Part shown: one piece after another, positions 15,501 to 16,745 of the stretch
Numbering within the stretch: the stretch's first letter is position 1
Layout: the number at the start of each line of letters is the position of its first letter
Assembly (NCBI RefSeq): GCF_009914755.1
Contig: NC_060929.1
Strand: one strand, 5' to 3'
Length of the DNA stretch: 64,000 nt
From: the human T2T-CHM13v2.0 reference genome, Homo sapiens
Position numbers and translations under genes: made by a program
The notes under the pieces: model-generated
The model's database searches: none
Told to the model about the DNA's origin: nothing
The model's input: the letters and a program-made list of their open reading frames with translations, nothing else

Positions 15501-16257
15501 AGGAGAAATCTAGAGAGGCAGTCTGGCTACAGCAGCTTTGCTGAGCTGCAGTGGGCTCCACCCAGTCGGAACTTCCCAGTGGCTTTGTTTACACTGTGAG
15601 GGGAAAACCACCTACTCAAGCCTCAGTAATGGCGGACGCCCCTCCCCCCACCAAGCTTGAGTGTCCCAGGTCGACCTCCGACTGCTGTGCTGGCAGCAAG
15701 AATTTCAAGCCAGTGGATCTTAGCTTGCTGGGCTCTGTGGGGATGGGACCTGCTGAGCAAGACCACTTGGCTCCCTGGCTTCAGCCCCCTTTCCAGGTGA
15801 GTGAACAGTTCTGTCTCCCTGGCATTCCAAGCACCCCTGGGGTATGAAAAAAAAAACTCCTGCAATTAGCTCAGTGTCTGCCCAAATGGGCACCCAGTTT
15901 TGTGCTTGAAACCCAGGGCCCTGGTGGTGTAGGGACCTGAGGGAATCTCCTGGTCTGCAGGTTGCGAAGACTGTGGGAAAAGCATAGTATCTGGGCTGGA
16001 TAGCTCTGTCCTTCACAGCACAGTCTCTCATGGCTTCCCTTGGCTGGGGAGGGAGTTCCCTGACCCATTGCACTTCCCGGGTGAGGTGGCGCCCCACTCT
16101 GCTTCTGTTTACCCTCCGTGGGCTGTACCCACTGTCTAACCAGTTCCAGTGAGATAAGTCAGGTACCTCAGTTGGAAATGCAGAAATCACCCACCTTCTG
16201 CATTGGTCTCACTGGGAGCTGCAGACCAGAGCTGTTCCTATTCAGCTATCTTGCCTG
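9529..16257 (-). mobile_element. Near full-length L1PA (L1PA7/8-like 5'UTR), antisense in the SPINK13 intron, ORFs disrupted
   Basis: 5'UTR start (aagatagctgaataggaacagctc on -), ORF1 fragment 13841-14239, and ORF2 fragments at 13327-13662, 12659-12946, 12183-12545 and 11317-11961 (LFADD). 17-bp TSD at 9512-9528 and 16258-16274. Confidence 0.97.
10178..10474 (-). mobile_element. AluY nested in the L1
   Basis: Full reverse Alu. TSD tgtttcctg(a/c)cttttt at 10162-10177 and 10475-10490. Confidence 0.95.
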
Positions 16258-16617
16258 CAGTTTTAATAAGTTTTAATACAAAATCCTTATTCTGACCAAT
16301 GACACTTGAGGTCTGTCCTCTAGAAGTTCACAAACACATAAGTATCTCCACTCATAAACATCCTACTGGAACTGAAACATGAAGGTTAAACAGGGATATT
16401 AAAATGGTTATGACTTGAAGAGATGATAGGATGGGTGGGGACACTACAATCAGAAAAAGAAACTGGCCTGACAGAAGGCCACAGAACAGTGAATCCTTGA
16501 TAAGATCAATTGACTGGTATGATTTAATATTATTTTTTAAGTGGGGCAGAAGTGACAGGAAGAAATAGATGGGAGAGAGTGTATTATTTGTCACTTTATG
16601 GTGTCATGTATTTGCAG

Positions 16618-16745
16618 CCCCGATGTAAAATGTATATCCCACTGGACCCTGATTACAATGCAGACTGCCCCAATGTGACAGCACCTGTTTGTGCCTCAAA
16701 TGGCCACACTTTCCAGAATGAGTGTTTCTTTTGTGTTGAACAGAG
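16618..16745 (+). CDS. SPINK13: SPINK13 coding exon 3 (Kazal core PRCKMYIPLDPDYNADCPNVTAPVCASNGHTFQNECFFCVEQ)
   Basis: Acceptor tttgcag|, donor AG|GTAAGT, five Kazal cysteines, 128 nt, phase 0 to 2. Confidence 0.98.

What the first reader, a model, noticed from the sequence alone, without database searches (positions are those of the whole stretch)
15629..16745. Potential in-frame L1 ORF0-SPINK13 Kazal fusion
Seen: the antisense L1 5'UTR carries an ORF0-like frame (gtaATGg, MADAPPPTKL...SDCCA...WLQPPFQ). A perfect donor CAG|GTGAGT follows exactly 56 codons (15796/15797, phase 0), and the SPINK13 Kazal exon acceptor 821 nt downstream is also phase 0. Splicing would give a 114-aa protein (56+58) with all six Kazal cysteines and no signal peptide. 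Established: the L1 antisense promoter and ORF0 can form fusions with neighbouring exons. Inference: this copy does so. As I recall the consensus reads CAGGGGAGT here, so the GT may be a locus-specific gain.
Basis: partly seen in the sequence, partly recalled or inferred. Interest (0 to 1): 0.72.

Follow-up and report, generated by a model that had tools for sequence, protein, structure and literature searches.

The report
Old LINE-1 splices into SPINK13
An old jumping gene lying backwards inside the human SPINK13 gene has gained, by a rare single-letter change, a strong splice site that would join its own short reading frame to the protease-inhibitor domain; an automated annotation already predicts this product, and it is most likely a minor by-product whose start site and protein are still unproven.

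Summary
The element is a full-length antisense L1PA7 with a 17-bp target-site duplication. The GT is a rare point gain: 8 of 507 genomic matches. The fusion is not unseen: RefSeq's predicted 'SPINK13 isoform X1' is identical to it, so the junction likely has RNA support. The frame shares ORF0's start and first ~21 codons, but the donor is not ORF0's SD1 or SD2. Against the promoter claim: the annotated exon starts 2 kb upstream inside a T25 run with about 30 upstream ATGs, the CpG island is decayed, the frame shows no constraint, at least 7 other copies have the same open frame and donor, and no searched chimera table lists SPINK13. For it: L1PA7 antisense promoters are reported active, and both ATGs in 15487-15796 are in the Kazal frame. 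Verdict: a real, testable variant of ORF0-exon fusion, probably neutral. Interest 0.38.

The parts
9529..16257 (-). Full-length, dead L1PA7 in SPINK13 intron 3, antisense to the gene; ORF1 and ORF2 are broken (longest open stretch 214 aa); an Alu-like insert lies at about 10171-10474
9512..9528 (.). Left copy of the 17-bp target-site duplication
16258..16274 (.). Right copy of the 17-bp target-site duplication
13613..15796 (+). RefSeq exon of a non-selected SPINK13 transcript, inferred to be the first exon of isoform X1; it begins inside a T25 run (13606-13630) with no AG acceptor
   Evidence: hub table; link to X1 inferred
15629..15847 (+). ORF0-like frame, 72 aa if unspliced; ATG in the context GTAATGG, overlapping an ATGGCG motif homologous to the antisense-side YY1 site
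15743..15745 (+). Second in-frame ATG (Met39, GGGATGG); would give a 76-aa product; 3 of 29 paralogs have ATG here, 21 have GTG
15794..15802 (+). Gained splice donor CAG|GTGAGT; the T at 15798 is G in most family members
15797..16617 (+). 821-nt intron of the fusion
16618..16745 (+). SPINK13 exon 4, phase-0 acceptor, five of the six Kazal cysteines
20514..20562 (+). Last coding exon of SPINK13, with the sixth cysteine and the stop codon
4587..8898 (+). Coding exons 4587-4656 and 8861-8898, which carry the hydrophobic leader and are bypassed in the fusion

Best explanation
A single G-to-T change in a dead, antisense L1PA7 made a strong splice donor in phase with SPINK13's Kazal exon, and this donor is likely used by a minor RNA that likely starts at the element's antisense promoter and would encode a leaderless, probably neutral ORF0-like-Kazal protein. 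Shown: the element, the point gain, the frames and phases, and identity with RefSeq isoform X1. Inferred: (1) the junction is spliced in some tissue, because automated models of this kind normally rest on RNA reads (own knowledge); (2) the RNA starts near 15580-15740 when the SPINK13 locus is open, as L1 antisense activity is reported to follow its host locus; (3) scanning then meets ATG 15629 or 15743, both in frame, giving 114 or 76 aa; (4) without a leader the protein stays in the cytosol, where the three Kazal disulfides are unlikely to form, so it is likely unstable and at most a source of peptides.
For: Anatomy. GT in 8 of 507 matches (10, 11, 13). RefSeq X1 is identical, and a RefSeq exon ends exactly at 15796 (20, 24, hub table). 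Pinson 2022 (section 5 read): 20.6% of L1PA7 elements gave chimeras; 31 of 32 tested L1PA1-7 chimeras began in an antisense-promoter region; the abstract passage says this activity is coupled to the host locus. The ATG maps to about position 445 of young L1s, the YY1 site next to the antisense promoter in Criscione 2016; the ATGGCG core is intact here and in 0 of 29 paralogs. Only two ATGs lie in 15487-15796, both in frame. For neutrality: divergence from the paralog majority is 7.1% in the frame against 7.0-11% in four flanking stretches; 7 of 15 other GT copies have the same open frame.
Against: The only annotated 5' end is at 13613, not in the 5' UTR. The CpG island is decayed (observed/expected 0.16; 9 CpG against a paralog median of 11). 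SPINK13 was absent from the held supplements of Criscione 2016 (11 files), Lanciano 2024 (11), a lung-cancer long-read study (7), a pan-cancer fusion preprint (3) and a long-read CAGE study (3), and the locus was not found in Pinson's chimera table. Twelve of 36 chimeras in Pinson began in the +200 region, which here lies downstream of the donor and could not make this fusion. X1 has one member sequence, and no ape or transcript-derived twin appeared in the 120 best hits of two searches.
Confidence: 0.45

Rival explanations
1. The donor is used, but by RNAs that start far upstream: partly spliced SPINK13 pre-mRNA, a cryptic L1 exon, or a secondary start within L1 ORF1/ORF2. The ORF0-like ATG then sits behind many upstream ATGs or premature stops, and little or no fusion protein is made.
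For: The RefSeq exon starts at 13613 inside a T25 run, where oligo-dT mispriming can create false cDNA ends (own knowledge), with 30 ATGs in the exon. The better upstream acceptors (15034, 15415) give frameshifts and stops. Pinson reports upstream-starting chimeras (5 of 36, including all 4 L1PA8) and secondary starts in L1 coding sequence.
Against: A T-run end can also be the 3' end of minus-strand RNA merged in from unstranded data, so it says little about the plus-strand start. For L1PA1-7, 98% (201 of 204) of long-read-checked chimeras had a 5' end in the 5' UTR.
Confidence: 0.35
2. The model is annotation noise: a handful of stray reads, with no meaningful splicing at 15796.
For: X1 is a predicted, not curated, isoform (own knowledge of the naming). 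It has no twin in the protein searches, and no chimera table lists it.
Against: The donor is as strong as SPINK13's exon-2 donor and only 821 nt from a constitutive acceptor. No homologous protein spans the junction that could have suggested it to a predictor.
Confidence: 0.13
3. It is an exapted, functional isoform: the L1 promoter makes an intracellular SPINK13 that acts on furin or Akt signalling, notably in tumours.
For: A liver-cancer study expressed SPINK13 with the signal peptide removed and reports cytoplasmic location, furin binding and about 27% lower furin activity (PMC11561306). SPINK13 is raised in renal and lung tumours. Three uncommon changes each favour an in-frame product: the GT, Met39, and an open phase-0 route from ATG 16030 to donor 16080 seen in 0 of 29 paralogs. 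6 of 12 changes are synonymous (p about 0.08).
Against: There is no drop in divergence over the frame, and the three changes were picked after the fact from about 50 private differences. The L1 part adds three cysteines and has no family match. The furin work is overexpression of a different construct. The renal study's PCR primers begin at the canonical start codon, so at least part of tumour expression is canonical.
Confidence: 0.07

Closest known systems
L1 ORF0-exon fusions (Denli et al. 2015; not held, seen only as described in PMC4908685 and PMC13517631)
   Same: Antisense frame in the L1 5' UTR starting at the homologous ATG (12 of the first 21 residues identical to a young-L1 71-aa ORF), spliced in frame to a host exon.
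   Different: The donor is neither SD1 (offset 106, phase 1) nor SD2 (offset 191, phase 2) of young copies. It lies at offset 168, phase 0, in L1PA7 sequence that young L1s lack, and it arose by point change after insertion. The peptide diverges from ORF0 after about residue 21. Start site and translation are not shown.
L1 antisense-promoter chimeric transcripts (Criscione 2016; Pinson 2022)
   Same: Intronic L1PA1-7 antisense to its host, able to give a 5'-truncated host mRNA that skips the first coding exons.
   Different: This locus is in Pinson's input list but was not found among the chimeras, and is absent from Criscione's files. No start site is mapped.
RefSeq SPINK13 isoform X1 (P0004)
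   Same: Identical 114-aa sequence.
   Different: Its name does not note that the first 56 residues are L1-derived. Its inferred first exon runs from 13613, which would not favour translation from 15629.
Kazal-type inhibitors (Pfam PF00050; SPINK1, SPINK2, SPINK7, ovomucoid)
   Same: Complete Kazal domain, 47.4 bits against a cut-off of 21, six cysteines.
   Different: No hydrophobic leader (maximum 11-residue hydropathy 0.43 against 2.43 near the N-terminus), and three extra cysteines.

Membership tests
L1 ORF0-exon fusion | Primate L1HS-L1PA8 5' UTR read antisense | tested here: met
   L1PA7, minus strand, 9.9% divergence in Pinson Table S1; the row was matched through a recalled coordinate offset and confirmed by its length, which ends at the Alu-like insert
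L1 ORF0-exon fusion | Start codon and frame homologous to ORF0 | tested here: met
   Same ATG position and 12 of the first 21 residues identical to the 71-aa frame found in 10 of 30 motif-matched loci; naming that frame ORF0 rests on its length and on recall
L1 ORF0-exon fusion | Use of ORF0's donors SD1 or SD2 | tested here: not met
   The SD2-homologous site has no GT here; the donor sits in a segment about 185 nt longer than in young L1s, and its alignment to SD1 is a 7-base island between long gaps
L1 ORF0-exon fusion | In-frame splice to a host coding exon | tested here: met
   Phases match and RefSeq models the product; the reads themselves were not seen
L1 ORF0-exon fusion | Transcript starts at the antisense promoter upstream of the ATG | not testable with these tools
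   No CAGE or long-read data; the annotated 5' end (13613) is in a T run
L1 ORF0-exon fusion | Translated peptide | not testable with these tools
   No ribosome profiling or proteomics available
Kazal-type protease inhibitor | Six-cysteine Kazal domain | tested here: met
Kazal-type protease inhibitor | Signal peptide and oxidative folding in the secretory pathway | tested here: not met
   No hydrophobic N-terminal stretch (hydropathy only, no dedicated predictor)
Kazal-type protease inhibitor | Folded domain in the fusion | tested here: inconclusive
   The model from a 4-sequence alignment had mean pLDDT 44 and is uninformative
TPRT-inserted full-length L1 | Target-site duplication at a TT/AAAA site | tested here: met
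   17-bp duplication; the minus strand reads TT|AAAA at the 5' junction

The most novel reading that the evidence does not exclude
An old primate L1 was turned by post-insertion point changes into an alternative promoter and first coding exon that makes a natural intracellular SPINK13, the endogenous counterpart of the leaderless form reported to bind furin and dampen Akt. It would be switched on with SPINK13 in renal and lung tumours and would carry a unique junction peptide. More widely, every L1PA7 5' UTR is one base away from a phase-0 ORF0 donor, and the 16 or more copies that made this change form a natural series of new ORF0 fusions.
Probability: 0.1. Interest if true: 0.7.

Novelty: new variant of a known kind. 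Interest (0 to 1): 0.38.

Why it matters
If translated, it shows that old L1PA7 copies can make ORF0-type fusions through donors gained after insertion, outside the SD1/SD2 routes. It would also give SPINK13, a secreted inhibitor raised in renal and lung cancers, a leaderless form and a locus-unique junction peptide of possible use as a tumour antigen. It also warns that 3'-end expression data for SPINK13 may mix two products. If it is not translated, it explains a RefSeq isoform as an L1 splicing by-product.

Tried and rejected
Structure prediction of X1 from a 4-row alignment: pLDDT 44, not used, and no fold search was run on it. Search for an ape or monkey ortholog of this copy among 173 related proteins: none shared more than 5 of 11 distinguishing residues, so the GT could not be dated. 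Germline hypomethylation: rejected, since 24 of 29 paralogs keep as many or more CpGs. Purifying selection on the frame: not supported (7.1% against 7.0-11%; synonymous excess p about 0.08). In-frame cassette exon inside secreted SPINK13: 7 AG sites would allow it, none a convincing acceptor, while the better acceptors bring stops. Homology of the donor to ORF0 SD1: rejected as an alignment island. Denli 2015 and Shah 2023 were not held. For the Genome Biology 2025 body-site atlas only one 4,398-character file was held, so that blank means nothing. The tables not seen could already list this junction.

Full report
Observation. Every coordinate holds. Window 15629-15796 is 56 open codons and 16618-16745 is the Kazal exon in frame. 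Joining the annotated SPINK13 exons gives the 94-aa precursor and puts the 16618 acceptor at phase 0. The proposed splice removes 821 nt and gives 114 aa with six Kazal and three L1-derived cysteines. On a simple weight matrix the donor is the best between 9600 and 16610, and 4 of 3322 plus-strand GT sites in the window match or beat it. Pfam finds a full Kazal domain at 68-113 and nothing in the L1 part. The N-terminus has no hydrophobic stretch.

The element. A 17-bp duplication at 9512-9528 and 16258-16274 bounds a 6.7-kb minus-strand L1 with broken ORFs. Pinson 2022 Table S1 lists an L1PA7 at 9.9% divergence on chr5, minus strand. I reached that row through a recalled coordinate offset; its length, 5784 bp, ends at the edge of the Alu-like insert at about 10474, which supports the match. 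The nearest paralogs are 85-88% identical.

The donor is a gain. The 21-mer around it occurs genome-wide 454 times with G, 45 with A or C and 8 with T. The 29 nearest paralogs have G 25, A 3, T 1. Among 173 related proteins the residue is Gly in 137 and Val in 3. The gain recurs: two patterns and one paralog give 15 other copies, a capture-recapture estimate is about 20, and 7 of the 15 also have an ATG and an open phase-0 frame. The ATG is in 28 of 29 paralogs and the frame is open to this point in 16 of 29. One such copy landing before a phase-0 exon somewhere in the genome is therefore within chance.

Relation to ORF0. Of 30 loci fetched with the start motif, 10 carry a 71-aa frame, the length given for ORF0. 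The SPINK13 copy shares the ATG and 12 of the first 21 residues, then diverges. Young copies have donors at offsets 106 (phase 1), 191 (phase 2) and sometimes 254. This donor is at 168 (phase 0), and the stretch from the ATG to the element's 5' end is 185 nt longer here. It works like an ORF0 fusion but fails the SD1/SD2 feature.

Already modelled. A search with the 56-aa part returned 'serine protease inhibitor Kazal-type 13 isoform X1 [Homo sapiens]', 114 aa, identical to the proposed fusion. The hub table lists an exon 13613-15796; I infer that it belongs to X1. From my own knowledge, X-numbered isoforms are automated models whose introns normally rest on RNA alignments, so the junction is likely real; I saw no reads. 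X1 has one member sequence, and no second fusion appeared among the 120 best of 749 and of 1106 hits, or among 5 Kazal-exon hits.

Where does the RNA start? This is the open point. Position 13613 lies inside a T25 run in ORF2 with no acceptor, and the exon holds 30 ATGs. It is not a credible start. It could be a mispriming end of a longer plus-strand RNA, in which case the ATG would not be reached, or the end of minus-strand RNA merged with promoter-derived reads (both inferred). For the promoter: Pinson (section 5 read) found chimeras at 20.6% of L1PA7 elements, 31 of 32 tested L1PA1-7 chimeras starting in an antisense-promoter region, and 201 of 204 with a 5' end in the 5' UTR. Criscione (passages) places a YY1 site at 448-453, just before the main antisense start near 400; the ATG here maps to that site, and its ATGGCG core is intact against 0 of 29 paralogs. 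A start downstream of the first ATG would still meet an in-frame ATG at 15743, giving 76 aa. Against: the CpG island is decayed and no better kept than in paralogs; 12 of Pinson's 36 chimeras started in the +200 region, which is downstream of this donor; and two short upstream frames (15433, 15486) would precede the ATG for starts above 15486.

Function. Divergence from the paralog majority is 7.1% over the 56 codons and 7.0, 7.6, 11.1 and 9.1% in four flanking stretches; 6 of 12 changes are synonymous, p about 0.08. There is no good sign of constraint. Kazal domains depend on three disulfides formed in the secretory pathway (own knowledge), so a cytosolic form with three extra cysteines is likely unfolded. 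The structure model was too poor to use. One paper keeps a functional reading open: PMC11561306 (passages and one section) overexpressed SPINK13 without its signal peptide and reports cytoplasmic colocalisation with furin and about 27% lower furin activity. SPINK13 is reported raised in renal (passages) and lung (passages) tumours; none of those passages separates isoforms.

In print. Full-text searches for SPINK13 with LINE-1 (5 papers), transposable element (5), alternative promoter (1), isoform (22) and alone (106, 40 listed) showed no title or abstract on an L1-driven form; these were seen as listings only. Term searches of supplements were blank for Criscione 2016, Lanciano 2024, PMC11909889, PMC10614793 and PMC10760525, and the locus was in Pinson's input table only. 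PMC13517631 was seen as passages. Denli 2015 and Shah 2023 were not held and the tables of PMC12587700 were not seen; they could list it.

Verdict. Most likely it is a minor, neutral L1 antisense-promoter isoform made possible by a gained donor (0.45); next, splicing of upstream-started RNA without translation (0.35); noise (0.13); exapted function (0.07). New variant of a known kind; interest 0.38.

Noticed in passing
window 16030-16080 (+): A second possible in-frame route: ATG 16030 is open for 17 codons to a weaker donor at 16080 in phase 0 with the Kazal exon. 0 of 29 paralogs have this; most have a stop and phase 1, and a 1-base deletion here removes the stop. No RNA evidence.
   Followed up: partly
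window 9512-9540: The L1 has no A-rich tail: its 3' end runs straight into the target-site duplication, whose last bases resemble the L1 terminus, whereas the window's other L1s at 52304 and 61055 keep their tails. Internal priming by microhomology, or later loss of the tail, could explain it.
   Followed up: partly
window 16245-16250: The YY1 core at the L1's own 5' end is altered (GCTATC on the plus strand, against GCCAT in 25 of 29 paralogs). Loss of this site is linked, from recall, to escape from methylation in younger L1s.
   Followed up: no
window 16672-16680 (SPINK13 exon 4): The Kazal reactive-loop P1 position aligns to Asn in an N-V-T glycosylation sequon, also present in a bat ortholog. 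Glycosylation there could block inhibition by the secreted form but not by a leaderless one.
   Followed up: no
L037, L042, L044, L046, L077, L083, L084: Seven other L1PA7-like copies have the same gained donor with an ATG and an open phase-0 frame; three also have Met39. Their host genes were not checked.
   Followed up: partly
window 16542: An older predicted human protein (P0124, hCG1655230) enters exon 4 through an upstream acceptor at about 16542 from exon 1, giving another leaderless Kazal frame.
   Followed up: no
window 55081-55938: A plus-strand L1 5'-region remnant (66-73% like the SPINK13 element) overlaps the start of the alternative SPINK9 exon 55816-58378 (hub table); possibly another L1-linked transcript start.
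   Followed up: no
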